NCBI GenBank assembly: GCA_031402865.1
Contig: JANNST010000052.1
Location: 4,089 to 68,088 of the forward strand
DNA: 64,000 nucleotides
Direction: 5' to 3'
DNA from: Chloracidobacterium sp.
GTDB taxonomy: Bacteria > Acidobacteriota > Blastocatellia > Pyrinomonadales > Pyrinomonadaceae
The first letter of the stretch is position 1. The number at the start of each line of letters is the position of its first letter. Positions 26,874 to 57,177 of this stretch are shown here, one piece after another. Under the pieces are notes generated by a model. It was not told where the DNA came from. It ran no database searches and was given only the letters and a program-made list of their open reading frames with translations. Position numbers and translations under genes: made by a program.

Positions 26874-27515
26874 TGCGAAAGCCCGCACGAAGTAAGGGCG
26901 ATACACTCAACGAACCCAATCATCCGTTTCAAACGGCACATCGTCCTGACAATAGAGAACGTAGTTCACAGCCGCCTCGACGTGGGGCGGCTTCCACAAA
27001 TAGCGCCGACTCCGGCCCCGGGACCAAACTCGCTCCGTAGCTCCGACTAGTCCGAGTTCCCTCAACCGTTTCGTCGCAAATGCTTTCATCGCATCAGCAA
27101 TCCTTTCGGGCTTCGCAGCAGCGGATGCTACTGCATGAACATGATTCGTGCGCACGTTCAGCGCATGGAGCCCATAATTTCTTTGGCCGCACAGCATCTC
27201 AATAGCGTCCGTAACGGCTCGTCGCTGGTCGGTTTTTAGTATTACAGGAGACTGCGCCATTTTTTCCTGCATACGTTCTTGAAGCGGCAGATTCGGATCA
27301 AGTTTTACTGTGCCCGGTACATCACGGTTGCTTCGGTTGATCGAAGATCGGTCATCGCCGTGCAGCCACGTTCCGAATGTCCGAAAGGTCATCAGGTATG
27401 CAAGGGGAAACTCGTTTTCTCCGTAGATATCAAATCCGTAGTCGTCGAGCATTTTGAGTTTGAGCGTGCCTCCTTCACTTGAGCATATCGCCCTTACTTC
27501 GTGCGGGCTTTCGCA
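26874..27515 (-). mobile_element. RAYT-like unit: Y1 (HUH) transposase gene bracketed by inverted 35-nt REP-like repeats
   Basis: TGCGAAAGCCCGCACGAAGTAAGGGCGATACACTC at 26874-26908 has its reverse complement at 27481-27515 (33/35 identical). Confidence 0.7.
26907..27452 (-). CDS. IS200/IS605-family Y1 transposase-like protein (REP-associated tyrosine transposase candidate)
   Basis: HUH motif NHVHAV and a C-terminal Tyr region NYVLYCQ. About 181 aa from the internal ATG 27452. The longer track ORF (to 27611) runs through the flanking repeat and the GH92 3' end. Confidence 0.72.
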   Translation of the reverse strand: MLDDYGFDIYGENEFPLAYLMTFRTFGTWLHGDDRSSINRSNRDVPGTVKLDPNLPLQERMQEKMAQSPVILKTDQRRAVTDAIEMLCGQRNYGLHALNVRTNHVHAVASAAAKPERIADAMKAFATKRLRELGLVGATERVWSRGRSRRYLWKPPHVEAAVNYVLYCQDDVPFETDDWVR

Positions 27516-27522
27516 TAAAAAG

Positions 27523-30500
27523 TCACCTGATAATAATCTCATCCACAAAGATCCACGGATCGCCGCCCGCTCCCGGATGCCATGATGGGATCTTGCCGAA
27601 ATTGTAAGCACGGATGCGAACGTAACGGGCCTTTGCCGGTGAGATCGTTTGAGTGAATTCTTTGATCTTAGGCGTCATCTCGCGTCGCGGAAAGCTGGGT
27701 TTGATCTCGGCGGCCTTAGTGAAATTCGTGCCGTCGCTCGAGGTTTCAAATTCGATCCGGTCCGGCATCCATATCCACGGCCCGGCGACCTGTAAAAAGC
27801 TGCCGCCGAGTTCCTTTATCTCCGTTTCCCGCTTTAGATCGATGATCGCGTCATAAGGTTTGCCCTGCACACCCTGCCATTCGCCGCTGGCGAAATTCAC
27901 CGTGCCGCGAATGCCGTCGATGATCGCGTTATCGCCGCCGCCGGTGTACTGAGTGCTGTAGCCGGAGACGACTTTAACGGTCCAGTCGTTCGGACGTTTC
28001 GCAAAAACTGCGTCGACAATCGGGCTTTCATTTCCTGGAGAAAAGTAAGTAAATGCCTTTACTGTGGCCGCAGCTCGGAGGACAACTGGTTCGAAGTATG
28101 TCTTTGATGACCGCGTTGGAGTGCTGCCGTCGGTCGTATAGAAGATCATCGCGTCTGGATTTGTCTTTCGCATCGTCACGATCGTTTTGTCGTTGAACAG
28201 ACGCTCGCCATCAATCACCGGAACCGCCGTCGCAACTCCGTGTATGCTCGAAAGCGGAAATTCAGTGAATGCGGTTTCAACTGGCTGGTCGATCATCGCA
28301 AATTCAAGTACGCCGCCGCGCATAAGTTCTTCATGGGTGATGAAGGCTTTTTTGTAAGGAGAGCCGTTCAGCTTTGCGTTGAGAATATAGATATTCTTCG
28401 GCGACACATGCTTCGCACGGATGGTAAACGTCTTGCCGTTCTCCAACCGGTATGTCATTTCGGGAAACAACGGTGTGCCGAGTGCATAGACGGGCGAGCC
28501 GGGAGCAACGGGATAGAAGCCACCCGCACTTAATATGTACCACGCGGACATCTGGCCGCAGTCCTCGTTGCCGATCAGGCCGTCGGGCGCGTTCTTGTAG
28601 AACTCGTCCATTATCTTTCGGACGTATTTCTGTGTTTTCCATGGCTCGCCGGCGTAGTTGTAAAGATAGGTGATGTGGTGCGACGGCTCGTTGCCATGGG
28701 CGTATTGGCCGATCAGCCCCGTCAGGTCGGCCTGCTCGCGACCGGCGAGTTTCTGGTCGGTGGTAAAGAGTTCGTCGAGCTTTGCGACAAATTTCTCACG
28801 CCCTCCCATCAGCTCCATCAAACGCGTTACGTCATGCGGGACAAAGAAGGAGTATTGCCACGAGTTGCCCTCGGTAAAGCCGAAGGTCACTTCGTTAGGT
28901 GCAAAAGGCTCGACAAAAACGCCATTCTTTTTCGGACGGAAGAAGCCGGTTTTTGTGTCGAAGAGGTTTTCGAAATGGCGAGCTCTATAACGAAAATCCC
29001 CATCTTTGAATGCCGGTGGCAGTTGTTCAATATTTCGATCTCCGCTCCGCGTTAAGCTCGCTTGCATTTGGGCAATGCACCAATCGTTATATGCATACTC
29101 GAGCGTCCGCGATACCGATTCGTTCTCGTCCTCCATTGAGATGTAGCCGCGTTTTTTGTAGGCGGCGAGGCCGAAGTGGTCGAGTTCGGCGGAGTGTTTG
29201 GCGGCCGCATAGGCTTTTTCGTAGTCGAAGCCTTTGATAGATTTAGCCATCGCGTCGGCGATGACCGAGGCGGCGTGGTAGCCGATCATGGTGTCGGTCT
29301 CTTCGCCCCACAGTTCCCAAACCGGCAGCCGCCCGCCCTGTTCGTAGATGCGGATGAACGTGTTTATAAAATCGACCGTGCGTTTCTGGTCGATGATAGT
29401 GTAAAGCGGATGCGCCGCTCGGAAGGTGTCCCATAGGGAAAAAACGGTGTAGTGGTTCTGAAGCTCCCCTCCTGTCTTAGGAGGGGTGGCCGCGTTTCGC
29501 GGACGGGGTGGTGATCCATGTTGAGCAGTAAGCAACGGTGAGCCCTTCCTCACGGTCGGGCTACTTACACGTGCGGCCTTCTGCATTTCGTAGCCCGGCA
29601 AAGAATGAACCTTTCCGTCGTGCCCTTTGTACCGTCCATCTACATCGTTGAAAACGTTCGGCTGGATTATCGTGTGATACAGCGCCGTGTAAAAATTGGT
29701 CGTCTGATCGTTCGTTCCGCCGGAGACCTCTATTTTGGTTAACTCTTTGTTCCAAGCCGCCTTTGCGTCGGCACGAACCTTGTCGAAATCCCAATGCGGC
29801 AACTCGGCAGCTAGGTTCTTGCGTGCGCCTTCGATAGAGACGTAAGAGATTGCGACCTTGAGCAAAAGGGGTTCTTCCGGCACGGTTTGGAATTGAAGCG
29901 ACAATAACCCGCCGTTGCTGGTTGCTTGAGCCGAGGGACCCATTAAACCAGTTGACTCAAGTCCGTTCCCGATCTGACCGCCTGTAAAAAGCTGCGAGAA
30001 TTCTGCCACGAAATACACCGTTTGGTTTTTCGCCCACGAAGTCGAGCGCCTTACACCTTCGATCCGGCGCTGTGCACCGTTAACTGACACGTCTGTTTGA
30101 AGCCATTTGTCACGCCATCTCAGGTCAAGTATCAAATTGGCGTGATCGGTTCTCGGGAATGTATATCTGTGCAATCCAACTCTTTTTGTAGAGGTCAACT
30201 CGGCAAGAATTCCATCGTCATCCAGCTTCACCGAATAGTATCCGGGCTCAGCTTTCTCATTGGCGTGAGAAAATTTAGACGCATAGCCATTAACCGACTT
30301 GTCGCCTTCTTTCGCGAAGAATTGCGGTTCGCCGACAGTCGGCATAAACAAGATATCGCACCCGTCCGGAATGCCGGTGCCGCTAAGGTGGGTGTGCGAA
30401 AAGCCGTAGATGATGTCGTCGGAGTAGTGATAGCCGCTTGAGCCGTCCCAGTTGTCGATGCGCGTGTCGGGCGAGAGTTGGACCATCCCGAACGGCATCG

Positions 30501-30648
30501 TCGCACCGGGAAAAGTGTGGCCATGGCCGCCGGTGCCGATGAACGGGTTGACGTGGCGGGTGTAGTCACGGGTTTGTCCCGCGACAGCAGGCGCTAGGCA
30601 TAGAAGAACTAAAACGCAGAGACGCTGAGACGCTGAGAGAACTTTCAT
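27523..30648 (-). CDS. GH92 family alpha-mannosidase with C-terminal F5/8 type C (discoidin) domain; in-frame repeat insertion
   Basis: NPFIGTGGHGHTFPGA, GFSHTHLSGTG, FSLWDTFRAAHPL and GNEPSHH are GH92 hallmarks. The C-terminal about 150 aa are discoidin-like. Confidence 0.9.
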   Translation of the reverse strand: MKVLSASQRLCVLVLLCLAPAVAGQTRDYTRHVNPFIGTGGHGHTFPGATMPFGMVQLSPDTRIDNWDGSSGYHYSDDIIYGFSHTHLSGTGIPDGCDILFMPTVGEPQFFAKEGDKSVNGYASKFSHANEKAEPGYYSVKLDDDGILAELTSTKRVGLHRYTFPRTDHANLILDLRWRDKWLQTDVSVNGAQRRIEGVRRSTSWAKNQTVYFVAEFSQLFTGGQIGNGLESTGLMGPSAQATSNGGLLSLQFQTVPEEPLLLKVAISYVSIEGARKNLAAELPHWDFDKVRADAKAAWNKELTKIEVSGGTNDQTTNFYTALYHTIIQPNVFNDVDGRYKGHDGKVHSLPGYEMQKAARVSSPTVRKGSPLLTAQHGSPPRPRNAATPPKTGGELQNHYTVFSLWDTFRAAHPLYTIIDQKRTVDFINTFIRIYEQGGRLPVWELWGEETDTMIGYHAASVIADAMAKSIKGFDYEKAYAAAKHSAELDHFGLAAYKKRGYISMEDENESVSRTLEYAYNDWCIAQMQASLTRSGDRNIEQLPPAFKDGDFRYRARHFENLFDTKTGFFRPKKNGVFVEPFAPNEVTFGFTEGNSWQYSFFVPHDVTRLMELMGGREKFVAKLDELFTTDQKLAGREQADLTGLIGQYAHGNEPSHHITYLYNYAGEPWKTQKYVRKIMDEFYKNAPDGLIGNEDCGQMSAWYILSAGGFYPVAPGSPVYALGTPLFPEMTYRLENGKTFTIRAKHVSPKNIYILNAKLNGSPYKKAFITHEELMRGGVLEFAMIDQPVETAFTEFPLSSIHGVATAVPVIDGERLFNDKTIVTMRKTNPDAMIFYTTDGSTPTRSSKTYFEPVVLRAAATVKAFTYFSPGNESPIVDAVFAKRPNDWTVKVVSGYSTQYTGGGDNAIIDGIRGTVNFASGEWQGVQGKPYDAIIDLKRETEIKELGGSFLQVAGPWIWMPDRIEFETSSDGTNFTKAAEIKPSFPRREMTPKIKEFTQTISPAKARYVRIRAYNFGKIPSWHPGAGGDPWIFVDEIIIR
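29458..29585. repeat. composite palindromic element in frame within the GH92 gene
   Basis: Contains perfect small hairpins cccctcc-tgtctta-ggagggg and ccgcg-ttt-cgcgg. The core matches 57091-57136 in reverse orientation. 29558-29584 is a degenerate look-alike of the RAYT-flanking REP. Confidence 0.7.
30614..30640. repeat. GCAGAGAC/GCTGAGAC octamer repeat inside the GH92 signal-peptide codons
   Basis: acgcagagacgctgagacgctgagaga is translated on the minus strand as LSASQRLCV within MKVLSASQRLCVLVLLCLAPAVAG. Confidence 0.75.
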
Positions 30649-33211: not shown

Positions 33212-34312
33212 CTACAAACCGATTATATCCAAAAACCGTTTTAGTTCATCCGGCAGCGGCAGGACAAACGCTAATTGCTCTTTTGTAACGGGATGTGTGA
33301 ACGAAAGCTTTTCTGCATGCAGGAAAAAACGGCCCATTATTCGGATCGCATTCTTTACGTCTATGTTCGCGACCGTGTTGTCACGGCCTTCGTTATAGGT
33401 TTCGTCACCCACTACGGGGTGATTGATCGACGCAAGATGGACACGAATCTGGTGCGTGCGGCCGGTTTTTATCTCGACCTCGACAAGTGCGAATTTATCG
33501 AACCGCTTGCGGACCTTCCACAATGAAAGGGCGTTTCGGCCATTTGCGGCGACTGTCATTTTGGTGCGGTGCCAGCGGTCGCGGGCCATCGGCCGGTCGA
33601 TGATGCCCGTGTTGTCACGCGGACTTCCGTGAACGAGGGCGAGGTAGCTCTTATAAACCTCGCGCGTACGGAACAGCTCGGACATCGCTTCGTGTATCTC
33701 CTCGCTTTTGGCGACAACGATGAGGCCGGAGGTTTGTTTATCTAAACGGTGGACGATGCCGACGCGACTTGTATTGGTTGCAGAAGCCTGCACGTTAGTA
33801 AGGGCGATATGCTCAACGTTGGCGGTATCGCCCTTACTTCGTGCGGGCTTCTGCGGCAGAACCTCGTCACCTGCTGACGCAGTTGTTTCTGACCTTACAG
33901 GCTGCATCCCGCTAACGCCGAAATGGTAGGCGATTGCGTTTGCCAATGTGCCCGAACTAACGCCGGCACCCGGATGAACGACCAATCCGGCCGGTTTGTT
34001 GATAACGGCAAGATATTCGTCTTCAAAAACAATTTCGAGCGGGATATTTTCGGGCTCGAACCGGGCGGGCGGGGCTTCGGCAAGGTCTACGTCGATGTCA
34101 TCATTTTCGCGCAGTTTATACGATGGTTTTGCCGTCGCCTGGTTAACCAGAACGTCGCCGTCTTCAATCAAACGCTGAAGACGAGACCGCGACCAGCCTT
34201 CGATGTTCTCCGCTAGAAAGGCATCAAGGCGCTTTCCTACTTCAGAACCGGTAATTGCGAAATTTAGTATCGGATTTTCGTCAGGCGATGGCGGTGTGTT
34301 AGCTGGGTTCAA
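33212..34312 (-). CDS. rluD: 23S rRNA pseudouridine synthase (RluD/RluA family), carrying an in-frame REPIN-like insertion
   Basis: S4-like N-terminus (RLDAFL...SRSRLQRLI), catalytic GIVHRLDKQTSGL, and HQIRVH. Confidence 0.9.
   Translation of the reverse strand: MNPANTPPSPDENPILNFAITGSEVGKRLDAFLAENIEGWSRSRLQRLIEDGDVLVNQATAKPSYKLRENDDIDVDLAEAPPARFEPENIPLEIVFEDEYLAVINKPAGLVVHPGAGVSSGTLANAIAYHFGVSGMQPVRSETTASAGDEVLPQKPARSKGDTANVEHIALTNVQASATNTSRVGIVHRLDKQTSGLIVVAKSEEIHEAMSELFRTREVYKSYLALVHGSPRDNTGIIDRPMARDRWHRTKMTVAANGRNALSLWKVRKRFDKFALVEVEIKTGRTHQIRVHLASINHPVVGDETYNEGRDNTVANIDVKNAIRIMGRFFLHAEKLSFTHPVTKEQLAFVLPLPDELKRFLDIIGL
33780..33854. repeat. 75-nt REPIN-like inverted doublet of the RAYT-associated REP, inside rluD
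   Basis: The reverse complement of the right half contains AAGCCCGCACGAAGTAAGGGCGATA, 25/25 identical to the repeat at 26879-26903. The left half is a diverged direct copy. Confidence 0.85.
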
Positions 34313-40338: not shown

Positions 40339-40408
40339 GGCGGAAACCCGCACGGTAGCAAGGGTGTGATCTTAAAGAGGCACACTCCCTACCGGTCGTG
40401 TTTCCGCC
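40339..40408. repeat. GGCGGAAACAC hairpin element, copy 3 (short loop)
   Basis: The right arm 40381-40408 is identical (28/28) to 35192-35219. The left arm 40339-40368 is more diverged. Confidence 0.85.
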
Positions 40409-56425: not shown

Positions 56426-56591
56426 TCTAACAGACTATGCAAGAGCGGCGGCGGAGCCGCGAGAATCACTAGGCCGCTGAACGGAAAAGCATAGCCCTTC
56501 CGCAGATAGACGGGCGTAACCCGAAGAACAGTCGCCTCCCACCACACGTACGCGAAGCGTTACTACCCATCCTCAGGCAGGAGGGTGTTTT

Positions 56592-56626
56592 AGGAGGCCG
56601 GTCGCTACTGCTCCCGGTTCTGACTG
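56592..56626. repeat. CCGGTCGCTACTGCTCCCGGTTCTGACTG element at the 3' end of the DUF3010-like gene
   Basis: Matches 18555-18590. It provides the last codons LLSQNREQ and the stop of the 56605-57033 ORF. Confidence 0.8.
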
Positions 56627-57033: not shown

Positions 57034-57090
57034 AGGTCGAGCGGCGGCAAGTAGTCGGTAAATTCAATACAGAAGTATATTACAGACCTA

Positions 57091-57177
57091 CCTCCCCATC
57101 CGCGAAACGCGGCCTCGCCTCCTTACCACGAGGGAGTTTTTTTTCAAACCCCGTCCCTACCGCTAGCGGTTCTGACT
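57091..57177. repeat. two adjacent repeat units: the CCGCGAAACGCGG-core element and a CCCTACCGCTAGCGGTTCTGAC unit
   Basis: 57091-57136 (cctccccatccgcgaaacgcggcctcgcctccttaccacgagggag) matches the reverse complement of 29465-29513. 57151-57177 resembles the GGTTCTGACT element. Confidence 0.7.

What the first reader, a model, noticed from the sequence alone, without database searches (positions are those of the whole stretch)
29458..29585. Composite repeat insertion read through in the GH92 mannosidase gene
Just upstream of the conserved GH92 block YTVFSLWDTFRAAHPL, the protein has a low-complexity stretch: QKAARVSSPTVRKGSPLLTAQHGSPPRPRNAATPPKTGGELQ.

The encoding DNA contains perfect mini-hairpins (cccctcc-tgtctta-ggagggg and ccgcg-ttt-cgcgg). 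Its core matches, in opposite orientation, the intergenic element at 57091-57136 (shared CCGCGAAACGCGGCC...CCTCCT core).

The adjacent 29558-29584 (reverse complement GCAGAAGGCCGCACGTGTAAGTAGCCC) looks like a degenerate copy of the RAYT-associated REP. This suggests nested or successive insertions in a coding region with the reading frame maintained.
Basis: partly seen in the sequence, partly recalled or inferred. Interest (0 to 1): 0.6.

Follow-up and report, generated by a model that had tools for sequence, protein, structure and literature searches.

The report
Mobile hairpin repeats translated inside mannosidase
A sugar-cutting enzyme gene of a soil acidobacterium carries, in frame, a 132-base patchwork of three small mobile hairpin repeats that is read as a floppy 44-residue loop. 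Every close relative has some other repeat patchwork at the same spot, so this is a clear but not new kind of selfish DNA in a gene.

Summary
The GH92 alpha-mannosidase gene (27523-30648, minus strand) has a 132-nt in-frame insert (29458-29589, residues E354-Q397). 53 Bacteroidota and Ignavibacteria orthologues aligned residue by residue, and five of six Acidobacteriota with one residue at the site, lack it.

On the coding strand the insert has four parts:
- a truncated arm of the REP repeat that also flanks the neighbouring RAYT-like gene
- a second, GTAG-type REP arm
- a REPIN-loop-like spacer
- one intact copy of a 50-nt two-hairpin element ("element A")

Element A is a real dispersed repeat. 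It has 55 metagenome copies with unrelated flanks, a 30-100-fold depth spike in four runs, and profile E-values of 5e-17 here and 1.5e-11 at 57089-57143.

AlphaFold models an intact GH92 fold. Its only long disordered segment is 363-396, ending 11 residues before the substrate-binding Asp407.

All ~115 orthologues of the close Pyrinomonadaceae-type clade carry an insert here, built from at least eight repeat families. Content is inherited between near relatives and is random beyond ~0.3 substitutions per site.

This is a Rickettsia-RPE-like / intragenic-REP phenomenon, with a persistent, re-invaded insertion site as the less familiar aspect.

The parts
27523..30648 (-). GH92 alpha-mannosidase gene: 1041 aa with signal peptide, GH92 N domain, GH92 catalytic domain, CHB_HEX_C/Fn3_assoc and F5/8 type C domains
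   Evidence: ORF. Pfam Glyco_hydro_92 E 1.8e-178 in two stretches split at the insert, and Glyco_hydro_92N E 1.7e-77. PDB 6f8z E 7e-188. AF2 model against 6f90_A gives TM 0.91. Synteny rluD-GH20-GH92 is shared with L081 and L084.
29458..29589 (-). The 132-nt in-frame insert, residues E354-Q397
   Evidence: It is the only insertion of 12 aa or more in P0001 relative to 53 outgroup orthologues. The empty site has one residue between the anchors. AF2 gives pLDDT below 50 for 363-396.
29461..29513 (-). Element A, an intact copy of a dispersed two-hairpin repeat: CCACCCCGTCCGCGAAACGCGGCCACCCCTCCT-AAGAC-AGGAGGGGAGCTT, read as PPRPRNAATPPKTGGEL
   Evidence: nhmmer profile of 51 metagenome copies scores it at E 5.3e-17. 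55 metagenome loci have unrelated flanks. Summed contig depth spikes 30-100-fold with sharp bounds at 29463/29512 in four runs.
29466..29486 (.). Hairpin B of element A: CCCCTCCT / AGGAGGGG, 8 bp, 5-nt loop
   Evidence: Stems are invariant and loops variable among the 51 copies.
29490..29502 (.). Hairpin A of element A: CCGCG-TTT-CGCGG, preceded on the coding strand by CGTC
29514..29539 (-). Spacer ACCGTTGCTTACTGCTCAACATGGAT. TGCTCAACAT resembles the REPIN loop TGCTCAACGT of 33810-33819
   Evidence: Direct comparison of sequences. The assignment is an inference, with no statistic.
29540..29567 (-). GTAG-type REP arm no. 2: TAAGTAGCCCGACCGTGAGGAAGGGCTC, read as (V)SSPTVRKGS
   Evidence: 23/28 match to TCAGTAGCCCGCACGTAAGTAAGGGCTC of L081 and L089, with 0 hits in 100 shuffles of the window. 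The same arm in this frame (VSSPTVREG) is at the site in P0003, P0008, P0014, P0017 and P0044.
29570..29584 (-). Truncated REP arm no. 1: GCAGAAGGCCGCACG, read as QKAAR
   Evidence: 14/15 match to the REP arm, with 0.01 hits expected by chance. An intact arm sits at the same position and frame in L140, L082, L141, L001 and L007. The profile score alone is weak (E 1.6).
57089..57143 (+). Diverged intergenic copy of element A, followed by T8, lying between divergently oriented ORFs
   Evidence: nhmmer E 1.5e-11. BLAST 27/30. Fold. ORF map.
56545..56593 (+). Decayed third copy of element A, intergenic
   Evidence: nhmmer E 0.005. Sequence.
26875..27514 (-). RAYT-like gene (about 26907-27452) bracketed by inverted REP arms at 26875-26904(+) and 27485-27514(-). 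This is the source family of REP arm no. 1
   Evidence: Arms. Pfam Y1_Tnp only E 0.0026, below the cut-off. 90%-identical genes sit downstream of GH92 in L082, L083 and L142.
33780..33854 (.). Complete REPIN (two inverted arms) used as the reference copy; it lies in the rluD gene

Best explanation
The stretch is a patchwork of small non-autonomous mobile palindromic repeats. They landed one after another in the codons of a tight surface turn of a GH92 alpha-mannosidase, and selection kept them only because the sum is a multiple of three without stops.

Shown:
- The ancestral turn is H-x-x-x-[G/D]-[F/Y]-x-[N/H]-Y.
- In the window it holds 132 extra bases: a truncated REP arm of the RAYT-associated family, a second GTAG-type REP arm, a spacer, and one intact 50-nt two-hairpin element A.
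- The gene stays open, keeps its catalytic residues, and is modelled with a normal GH92 fold. The insert is a disordered loop that ends 11 residues before the -1-subsite Asp407.
- Every orthologue of the close clade has an insert at this spot, from at least eight repeat families, with content turning over at roughly 0.2-0.3 amino-acid substitutions per site.

Inferred:
- A founding insertion, probably a REPIN, turned the turn into a long, tolerant loop. It cannot be excised precisely, so the site stays occupied.
- Later elements inserted into or beside the resident repeats: into the REPIN loop, and after ...GCACG in the arm. Internal deletions removed older pieces.
- The protein-level effect is neutral or nearly so.
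- Mobilisation of the REP arms by the adjacent Y1 (RAYT-like) transposase on single-stranded DNA is assumed from the family's known biology. The mobilising enzyme of element A is unknown.
For: - Empty site: 66 of 80 fetched loci, including Pyrinomonas K22, have zero or one residue at the site. The insert is the only large one in the protein.
- Element A is dispersed and sharply bounded. It has 55 metagenome copies with unrelated flanks, profile E 5e-17, and a 30-100-fold depth spike bounded at 29463/29512.
- Element A is in frame, in both orientations, in kynureninase, ABC-F, dihydroorotase, P-type ATPase and Pyr_redox genes.
- REP arms.
- Stepwise series in orthologues: a full REPIN in L141, L001 and L007; left arm plus loop plus element A in L082, L140 and L081; the window with an extra nested arm. 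The same kind of arm-after-GCACG nesting is seen at L097:323.
- Element A non-loop positions are 45-46/46 identical among five orthologues whose flanks are 72-88% identical. Loops, left junctions and reading frame differ.
- Eight or more families sit at one site, near-randomly on the gene tree. For example, family C has 24 carriers and needs at least 22 changes, against 22.3 when shuffled. Sharing decays from 100% to the ~20% background by 0.3 substitutions per site.
- Not an assembly artefact. Contigs from four samples in three studies span the junctions. These include ~90%-identical relatives that cover parts of the same arrangement without gaps.
- Protein integrity: AF2 pLDDT 87.7, with 363-396 the only long low-confidence segment. 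TM 0.91 to BT3130. D407 and E593 align with BT3130 Asp353 and Glu535 (PMC5930347).
Against: - No direct evidence that the loop is translated or that the enzyme is active; there is no RNA or proteome data.
- REP arm no. 1 is only 15-17 nt and is insignificant under a profile search of the whole window (E 1.6). The spacer assignment has no statistic.
- The order of insertions is inferred from orthologues that are not sisters.
Copy numbers in this genome are therefore unknown. The 64-kb window holds only one intact and two decayed copies of element A.
- Retention of one old allele plus DNA-level homogenisation, rather than repeated new insertion, would also give non-monophyletic carriers.
Confidence: 0.88

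Rival explanations
1. The site is a true target. The mobile hairpins home to resident repeats or to a DNA feature of this locus, by hairpin- or sequence-specific single-strand insertion. The recurrent occupation would then reflect insertion preference rather than only the tolerance of a disordered loop. This refines the best explanation rather than replacing it.
For: - Element A abuts the right flank at the same codon in the window, L081, L082 and L084, although left junctions and loops differ.
- It follows the REPIN loop exactly where the right arm would start (L082 against L141).
- Truncated-arm-then-new-arm junctions after GCACG occur in the window and in L097.
- Element A copies elsewhere often sit next to other repeats: L115, L116, L124 and window 56534-56620.
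Against: - The outer boundaries could be fixed simply because the neighbouring residues are structurally essential.
- Element A occurs with entirely unrelated flanks in 55 loci and no shared target motif was evident by eye.
- No transposase for element A was identified. None of the 55 loci encodes a relative of the window's RAYT-like protein.
Confidence: 0.35
2. The loop is adaptive. A long flexible segment 11 residues before the -1-subsite Asp, or the mRNA hairpins it encodes, would be selected for. It might act as a lid or substrate-access modulator, a protease-resistant linker, or a translational pause between the beta-sandwich and the barrel. The repeats would merely be the raw material.
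For: - All ~115 orthologues of the clade keep an insert of 11-114 residues and none has reverted to the one-residue turn.
- The site is close in sequence to Asp407.
- The coding-strand RNA folds better than shuffles (z -2.4).
Against: - Sequence, length (4 to more than 100 extra residues) and family are unconstrained and turn over to randomness.
- P0083 keeps only 4 extra residues.
- Precise excision is mechanistically improbable, so persistence needs no selection.
- Outgroup enzymes, including characterised Bacteroides GH92s, work with the tight turn (PMC5930347).
- The same elements sit in many unrelated enzymes.
Confidence: 0.1
3. The gene is inactivated. The insert would disrupt folding near the active site, and the ORF would be a young pseudogene that has not yet accumulated stops.
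For: The insertion is only 11 residues from a substrate-binding residue. One orthologue (L013) shows several frame changes and a stop in its insert.
Against: - The 1041-codon frame is open. All invariant GH92 residues are kept.
- Some 115 orthologues with inserts remain full length at 65-80% identity, which implies long-term purifying selection.
- AF2 places the insert as an excursion from an otherwise native fold.
- L013 comes from a long-read bin with frame changes all along the gene, which fits sequencing error.
Confidence: 0.04
4. Artefact or chance. The insert would be an assembly chimera at a repeat, or an old lineage-specific loop whose resemblance to repeats is coincidental.
For: Repeats of 50 nt break short-read assembly graphs. 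Logan contigs do end inside element A.
Against: - Both flanks belong to the same gene in the same frame.
- Junction-spanning contigs with 0 mismatches are present in two samples. Diverged relatives in two further studies cover parts of the same arrangement without gaps.
- Long-read and complete assemblies of orthologues also carry inserts here (L002, L005).
- Profile E-values are 5e-17 and 1.5e-11.
Confidence: 0.02

Closest known systems
Rickettsia palindromic elements (RPE; Ogata et al. 2000 Science 290:347; 2002 Genome Res 12:808; summarised in PMC10969869)
   Same: Short palindromic mobile repeats inserted in frame in conserved, functional genes. They are translated as extra surface segments compatible with the fold. 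Several families occur per genome.
   Different: - Unrelated sequences and host: a free-living soil acidobacterium, not an obligate intracellular alphaproteobacterium.
- RPEs are ~100-150 bp single units. To my knowledge (from memory) they mostly decay in place.
- Here the units are 30-50 nt, nested and composite. The same site is occupied by different families across orthologues.
Intragenic GTAG- and CGTC-tagged REPs (Di Nocera, De Gregorio, Rocco 2013, BMC Genomics 14:522, PMC3733652)
   Same: - REP monomers, dimers and clusters sit inside known ORFs and encode 20-82 residues.
- The window's arm no. 2 carries GTAG.
- Element A has CGTC directly at the 5' foot of its first hairpin.
[quoted passage not shown]
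   Different: - That survey names GTAG repeats in Proteobacteria, Cyanobacteria, Chloroflexi and the PVC superphylum. 'Acidobacteria' occurs once in its text, and I did not read that passage.
- In the passages I read it does not report turnover of families at one orthologous site.
- Element A is a two-hairpin unit, not a single stem-loop.
REPIN-RAYT systems (Bertels and Rainey 2011, PLoS Genet 7:e1002132, PMC3116915) and class 3 TnpA-Y1 systems (Quentin et al. 2018, BMC Genomics 19:475, PMC6006769)
   Same: Inverted REP doublets are dispersed in the genome. The same arms flank a single small HUH-Y1-like gene (26875-27514). Orthologues carry the complete doublet at the GH92 site.
   Different: - In the window only truncated single arms remain in GH92.
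- The neighbouring protein matches Pfam Y1_Tnp only weakly (E 0.0026).
- Classical REPINs are extragenic.
Characterised GH92 mannosidases BT3130, BT3965 and BT3990 (PDB 6f8z/6f90, 6f91, 2wvx; Thompson et al. 2018, PMC5930347)
   Same: Same two-domain catalytic core (TM 0.91, 41% identity to BT3130). Conserved acid (E593) and -1-subsite Asp (D407).
   Different: The solved enzymes have about 8 residues where the window's protein has about 51. The window's protein also has C-terminal CHB_HEX_C and F5/8 type C domains.

Membership tests
Glycoside hydrolase family 92 (host gene) | GH92 N-terminal beta-sandwich plus (alpha/alpha)6 catalytic domain | tested here: met
   Pfam PF17678 E 1.7e-77 and PF07971 E 1.8e-178. 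Foldseek 6f90_A TM 0.91, rmsd 2.9.
Glycoside hydrolase family 92 (host gene) | Catalytic acid (BT3130 Glu535) and -1-subsite Asp (BT3130 Asp353) conserved | tested here: met
   E593 in FTEGN and D407 in SLWDTFR align with chain positions 519 and 337 of 6f8z_A. An offset of 16 fits both residues named in PMC5930347. Both are invariant in 89 sequences. Enzyme activity was not tested.
REP / REPIN (RAYT-associated) | Same short arm repeated at dispersed sites of the genome | tested here: met
   The 64-kb window holds five further arms: 26875, 27514, 33780, 33854 and 40340.
REP / REPIN (RAYT-associated) | Arms flank a single-copy Y1 (RAYT-type) transposase gene | tested here: inconclusive
   Inverted arms bracket ORF 26907-27452. 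The protein has an HVHAV motif, but Pfam Y1_Tnp scores only E 0.0026, 18.3 bits against a cut-off of 23.
REP / REPIN (RAYT-associated) | Two inverted arms able to form the REPIN hairpin | tested here: not met
   In the window's GH92 insert only a 15-17-nt arm stub and one other single arm remain, with no inverted partner. The complete doublet is present at the same site in L141, L001 and L007. The window therefore holds REPIN remnants, not a REPIN.
REP / REPIN (RAYT-associated) | GTAG tetranucleotide at one end of the arm | tested here: met
   Arm no. 2 reads TAAGTAGCCCG..., as do the L081, L084 and L089 copies (TCAGTAGCCCG). Arm no. 1 has GAAG instead.
CGTC-tagged REPs (Di Nocera 2013) - considered for element A | Short GC-rich stem-loop tagged by CGTC at one end, in many dispersed copies | tested here: inconclusive
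   CCCCGTCCGCGAAACGCGG has CGTC overlapping the foot of hairpin A, and positions are over 90% invariant in 51 copies. Dispersal is shown. Element A has a second, larger hairpin and was not compared with the published CGTC families.
MITE | Terminal inverted repeats and target-site duplication | tested here: not met
   Element A's ends (GAACCACCCC... / ...GGAGGGGAGCT) are not inverted copies of each other. By eye, the 55 flanks show no duplicated target.
Rickettsia palindromic elements | Sequence membership in RPE-1 to RPE-10 | not tested
   No RPE sequences were fetched. The resemblance is in behaviour only.
Any Rfam RNA family | Covariance-model match | tested here: not met
   No match in 29380-29660 up to E 10. 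The only match in the window at gathering score is a tRNA.

The most novel reading that the evidence does not exclude
The GH92 turn is a persistent landing pad. After one founding insertion in the ancestor of the clade, mobile hairpins have homed again and again to the resident repeats rather than inserting at random. They enter the REPIN loop and a fixed break point after GCACG in the arm. Repeat-into-repeat insertion plus internal deletion would then be a distinct, lineage-wide engine of protein-loop evolution in Pyrinomonadaceae-type Acidobacteria. In this reading, element A is a widespread, sequence-invariant 50-nt two-hairpin element with no known transposase. It is mobilised by an undescribed single-strand mechanism.
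Probability: 0.3. Interest if true: 0.65.

Novelty: new member of a known kind. Interest (0 to 1): 0.45.

Why it matters
It adds a well-documented free-living example, with a large comparative series, to the short list of bacteria in which selfish palindromic DNA is routinely translated inside conserved enzymes.

The series of about 115 orthologues, one site and at least eight repeat families lets one measure how long such inserts last. Content is shared below 0.1 substitutions per site and random by 0.3. Once a loop is opened it is never closed again. This bears on how disordered loops arise in proteins.

Practically, these repeat-encoded peptides (PPRPRNAATPP..GGE, TTPSAKRGHPSF, QKPAR.QGR, VSSPTVREG and others) will seed false homology. 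They will also split Pfam domains and break short-read assemblies in soil metagenomes.

Tried and rejected
There is therefore no census of the repeats in the window's own genome and no genome-wide dot plot. I substituted the 64-kb window, 143 fetched loci, one metagenome pattern scan and contig depth in four runs.
- Rfam gave nothing for the region.
- A look-up of earlier findings by sequence returned nothing.
- The first AF2 run, on 33 close sequences, was too poor to use (pLDDT 59). A second run with 89 diverse rows worked. Model coordinates are not exposed, so the distance from the loop anchors to the catalytic centre could not be measured.
- A REP-arm profile search does not by itself support arm no. 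1 (E 1.6). The support comes from the exact-word statistic and from orthologues.
- The AU test rejects a single clade for the four frame-2 carriers of element A (p 0.0002). I do not count this as proof of independent gain, for two reasons. Retention of an old allele with replacement elsewhere would give the same result, and the group was named after I had seen a tree.
- Intein, intron and translational-bypass readings were considered and dropped. The segment has no stop, its length is a multiple of three, and no intein-type junction residues are visible in the peptide. None of these was tested further.
- The idea that the intergenic copy at 57089-57143 is a terminator was dropped. It lies between divergently oriented ORFs.
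- The apparent 1.3-kb extra length of L003 was a second HSP in the neighbouring gene, not an insertion.
Full report
**Tools.** Nothing below rests on the window's complete genome.

**1. What is at the coordinates**

The minus strand of 27523-30648 is one open frame of 1041 codons. It has:
- a signal peptide
- a GH92 N-terminal domain (Pfam E 1.7e-77)
- a GH92 catalytic domain (E 1.8e-178), which Pfam matches in two stretches broken at the finding
- C-terminal CHB_HEX_C/Fn3_assoc and F5/8 type C domains

The two hairpins are real:
- CCCCTCCT/AGGAGGGG at 29466-29486, an 8-bp stem with a 5-nt loop
- CCGCG-TTT-CGCGG at 29490-29502

The coding-strand RNA of the segment folds somewhat better than shuffles (-51.4 kcal/mol, z -2.4).

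**2. Size of the insert and the empty site**

A scan of one genome per species returned 80 orthologous loci. I anchored on the conserved flanks ...GHDGKVHSLP and QNHYTVFSLWDTF.
- 66 loci have zero or one residue between the anchors.
- These are Bacteroidota, Ignavibacteria, Pyrinomonas methylaliphatogenes K22 (L032) and five other Acidobacteriota (L006, L009, L010, L055, L060).
- The local sequence in these loci is H-x-x-x-[G/D]-[F/Y]-x-[N/H]-Y-T-V-F-S.

Against 53 outgroup rows, P0001 has only two insertions of four or more residues. One is E354-Q397 (44 aa) and the other is an 11-residue one at 535-545. In window coordinates the insert is 29458-29589, 132 nt. The best solved relative, BT3130 (6f8z), has 8 residues where the window has 51.

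**3. Element A (29461-29513)**

BLAST of the region against the window finds 57123-57094 at 27/30 identity, E 1.4e-4.

One exact-pattern scan of metagenome contigs with CCGCGAAACGCGGCCNNNCCTCCT gave 55 loci. In all of them the conserved block has the same sharp limits: (ga)ACCACCCCGTCCGCGAAACGCGGCCACCCCTCCT - loop of 4-7 nt - AGGAGGGGAG(c/t)t. The flanks are unrelated to one another. One 1.3-Mb contig holds four copies, and some loci hold tandem copies.

A profile built from 51 of these copies, none from the window, gave three hits:
- 29459-29513(-), E 5.3e-17
- 57089-57143(+), E 1.5e-11
- 56545-56593(+), E 0.005, a decayed copy (sequence)

Stem positions are over 90% invariant. The hairpin-B loop varies: TCGTA 14 times, ATCC 5 times, TTTCCA 4 times, and many others.

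Logan contigs of four metagenome runs were laid on 29200-29900. Summed depth was:

| Run | Depth on neighbouring sequence | Depth over 29464-29487 |
|---|---|---|
| X1 | about 7 | 468 |
| X2 | about 19 | 2015 |
| X3 | about 5 | 387 |
| X4 | about 10-20 | 912 |

Many contigs fit only 29462-29512 and run on into unrelated sequence at 29463/64 and 29512/13. Element A is therefore a high-copy dispersed repeat of soil and sediment communities.

It is also translated elsewhere. It sits in frame, in either orientation and in several frames, in long ORFs that Pfam identifies as kynureninase, an ABC-F ATPase, dihydroorotase, a heavy-metal P-type ATPase and a pyridine-nucleotide-disulphide oxidoreductase.

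No Rfam family matches.

**4. The REP part (29514-29589)**

The arm GCAGAAGCCCGCACGAAGTAAGGGCGATAC brackets, in inverted orientation, the small RAYT-like ORF just downstream of GH92 (26875-26904 and 27485-27514). It also forms a complete REPIN at 33780-33854 and occurs at 40340.

*Arm no. 1.* In the insert, 29570-29584(-) is GCAGAAGGCCGCACG, a 14/15 match. Hits with at most one mismatch number 3 in the window, against 0.01 in shuffles. A profile of the arm alone gives only E 1.6 here, because the match stops after about 17 nt. Orthologues give the stronger argument. L140, L082, L141, L001 and L007 have the intact arm at exactly this place and frame, read as [L/M]QKPAR.

*Arm no. 2.* Directly after ...GCACGT comes 29567-29540, TAAGTAGCCCGACCGTGAGGAAGGGCTC. 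It matches a GTAG-type arm subfamily at 23/28, with no such match in 100 shuffled windows. That subfamily (TCAGTAGCCCGCACGTAAGTAAGGGCTC) is found outside GH92 in L081 and L089. In this frame it reads VSSPTVR(K/E)G. Several orthologues have the same peptide at the site (P0003, P0008, P0014, P0017, P0044).

*Frames.* The two subfamilies are read in different frames, QKPAR against VSSP.V. Substitutions alone cannot convert one into the other.

*Nesting.* An arm stub ending in GCACG followed by a new arm is also seen in an unrelated metagenome locus (L097:323).

*Spacer.* 29539-29514 contains TGCTCAACAT, which resembles the REPIN loop TGCTCAACGT. I give no statistic for this.

**5. Order of events (inferred)**
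- L141, L001 and L007 carry a whole REPIN (87-90 nt) at the site.
- L082 is identical to L141 through ...GGGCGTAACATTCAACG. It then continues into element A where the right arm would begin.
- L140 and L081 have the same layout.
- The window has it too, plus the nested second arm.

The simplest reading is: REPIN first; element A into or next to its loop, with loss of the right arm; then a GTAG-type arm into arm no. 1.

**6. Age of element A**

The 46 non-loop positions of element A are 45-46/46 identical among the window, L081, L082, L084 and L140. The 300 nt of coding DNA on either side are only 72-75% (upstream) and 83-88% (downstream) identical.
- Loops differ: AAGAC, AAGAC, AATCA, TTGAA, TCGTA.
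- Left junctions differ.
- The window reads the element in frame 2 (PPRPRNAATPP). Its nearest relative, L140, reads it in frame 1 (TTLSAKRGHPSF).

So the copies are younger than the species, or they are homogenised from other copies. They are not an old loop drifting in place.

**7. The site across orthologues**

Of the best 120 database homologues, the 111 or so whose anchors could be found all carry an insert here. The segment between the regex anchors, which is 7 residues long in the empty site, measures 11-114 residues in them. At least eight peptide signatures recur:

| Family | Signature |
|---|---|
| A | element A, in two frames |
| B | REP arm, in two frames, plus its reverse arm ALPNGRASA |
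| C | YLRRSSASP...RKSGAFPQIDGQSP |
| D | ADTPVR...DKSVRAP |
| E | SPGFSRP...PPKGGTP |
| F | NRRDAETQR (octamer repeats) |
| G | NPKSKIQNPKS (octamer repeats) |
| H | RRGDGE...SPRRRV |

I built a tree of 123 sequences with the insert removed.
- The insert-bearing sequences form one supported clade (100*).
- L006 (empty) and L005 (17 residues between the anchors, about 10 extra) sit at its base. The other empty-site Acidobacteriota lie outside.
- Within the clade the families are scattered almost at random. Family C has 24 carriers and needs at least 22 changes (22.3 shuffled). Family B has 30 carriers and needs 22 (27.0 shuffled).

Pairs sharing at least one family, by patristic distance:

| Patristic distance (substitutions per site) | Pairs sharing a family |
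|---|---|
| below 0.1 | 100% (5 pairs) |
| 0.1-0.2 | 71% |
| 0.2-0.3 | 50% |
| beyond 0.3 | about 16-25% (background) |

Two sister pairs differ completely:
- L081 (families F, B and A; 159 nt between the anchors) and L143 (a 15-nt remnant of D)
- L141 (a REPIN) and L142 (families C and G; 216 nt)

No member of the clade has returned to the one-residue turn.

The AU test rejects one clade for the four frame-2 carriers of element A (p 0.0002). Retention with replacement elsewhere would give the same result, so I do not use it to count gains.

**8. Not an artefact**
- In runs X1 and X2, contigs with no mismatch cross both junctions of element A with GH92 sequence.
- In X3 and X4, which come from other studies, contigs of ~90%-identical relatives cover 29483-29859 and 29317-29570 without gaps. 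At least parts of the same arrangement therefore exist in independent samples.
- Long-read and complete assemblies of orthologues also carry inserts (L002, L005).
- L013 has an 83-nt segment, but it also changes frame four times along the gene. It may be a poor long-read consensus or a pseudogene.

**9. Protein consequences**
- With an 89-row alignment, AlphaFold2 gives mean pLDDT 87.7 and pTM 0.88.
- The only long segment below 50 is 363-396, preceded by a short, less confident helix at 353-361. Flanking blocks are at about 92.
- The model superposes on BT3130 (6f90_A) with TM 0.91 and rmsd 2.9 Å.
- From the HMMER alignment to 6f8z and the residue numbers in Thompson et al. 2018 (PMC5930347), D407 of SLWDTFR corresponds to Asp353. 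That residue bridges O3 and O4 of the -1 mannose. E593 of FTEGN corresponds to the acid Glu535. The same offset of 16 fits both, and both are invariant.
- The loop thus ends 11 residues before a substrate-binding residue. I could not measure distances in three dimensions.
- Translation of the loop and activity of the enzyme are inferred, not shown.

**10. Comparison with what is known**

In-frame palindromic repeats in functional genes are the hallmark of Rickettsia RPEs (Ogata 2000, 2002; review PMC10969869). Di Nocera et al. 2013 (PMC3733652) described intragenic GTAG and CGTC REPs, including clusters encoding 43-82 residues. [quoted passage not shown]
- Arm no. 2 carries GTAG.
- Element A carries CGTC at the foot of its first hairpin.
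- The REP arms flank a Y1-like gene, as in REPIN-RAYT and class 3 TnpA-Y1 systems. The Pfam match of that protein is below threshold (E 0.0026).

Earlier notes of this scan report the same habit in rluD and tilS of this window. I treated those as leads. My own data agree for GH92.

**11. Verdict**

It is a new, well-supported member of a known kind. What goes beyond the textbook case is the persistent occupation of one codon-level site by ever-changing repeat families. Whether that reflects homing to resident repeats or merely the tolerance of an already disordered loop remains open.

Noticed in passing
window 26875-27514; L082 3566-4204; L083; L142 3505-3842: The RAYT-like gene with its flanking REP arms lies immediately downstream of GH92 in the window and in two other lineages (P0006, P0054). 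It is 90% identical in protein, while the adjacent GH92 proteins are only 64-75% identical to the window's across the aligned homologues. In other orthologues (L081, L140, L143, L084, L141) nrfH/nrfA or a 2OG-Fe oxygenase gene follows instead.
   Followed up: partly
window 56534-56620: A decayed third copy of element A (E 0.005) is followed directly by another repeat family, CCGGTCGCTACTGCTCCCGGTTC. That family also sits next to element A in metagenome loci L093, L116 and L124.
   Followed up: partly
L090, L093, L097, L121, L137 and others (metagenome loci): Element A is in frame in kynureninase, ABC-F ATPase, Pyr_redox oxidoreductase, dihydroorotase and P-type ATPase genes, in both orientations. 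The recurring peptides are PPRPRNAATPP..GGE, TTPSAKRGHPSF, HPVRETRPPLL, SPPY.GGVAAFRGRGG and PLL.KEGWPRFADGVV. In L132, L133 and L137 a second related repeat (SSPPYKGGV(A/D)AASADGVV) precedes it.
   Followed up: partly
L097:323: Tandem truncated REP arms, TCAGCAGCCCGCACG-CGTG-TCAGTAGCCTGCACG. The break point after GCACG is the same as in the window's GH92 insert. This hints at a defined insertion or cleavage point inside the arm.
   Followed up: no
L013 2501-5563: This GH92 orthologue from a long-read bin changes frame four times and has a stop inside its insert (family D-like). It is either a consensus with indel errors or a real pseudogene.
   Followed up: partly
P0057, P0022, P0096, P0113 (proteins): Extreme versions of the same loop. 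P0057 has four tandem AKAGTPSAP units. P0022, P0096 and P0113 have more than 100 repeat-derived residues at the site.
   Followed up: no
window 30614-30648 and N-termini of orthologues: The signal-peptide n-region (LSASQRLCV) recurs as SASLRLCG/SASRRLGG in many orthologues' N-termini. This fits the octamer-repeat origin noted by another first-stage finding.
   Followed up: no
window 29020-29055 region (residues 535-545): This is the second, 11-residue clade-specific insertion (SGDRNIEQLPP), in a helical region that varies in length among orthologues. It does not look repeat-derived.
   Followed up: no
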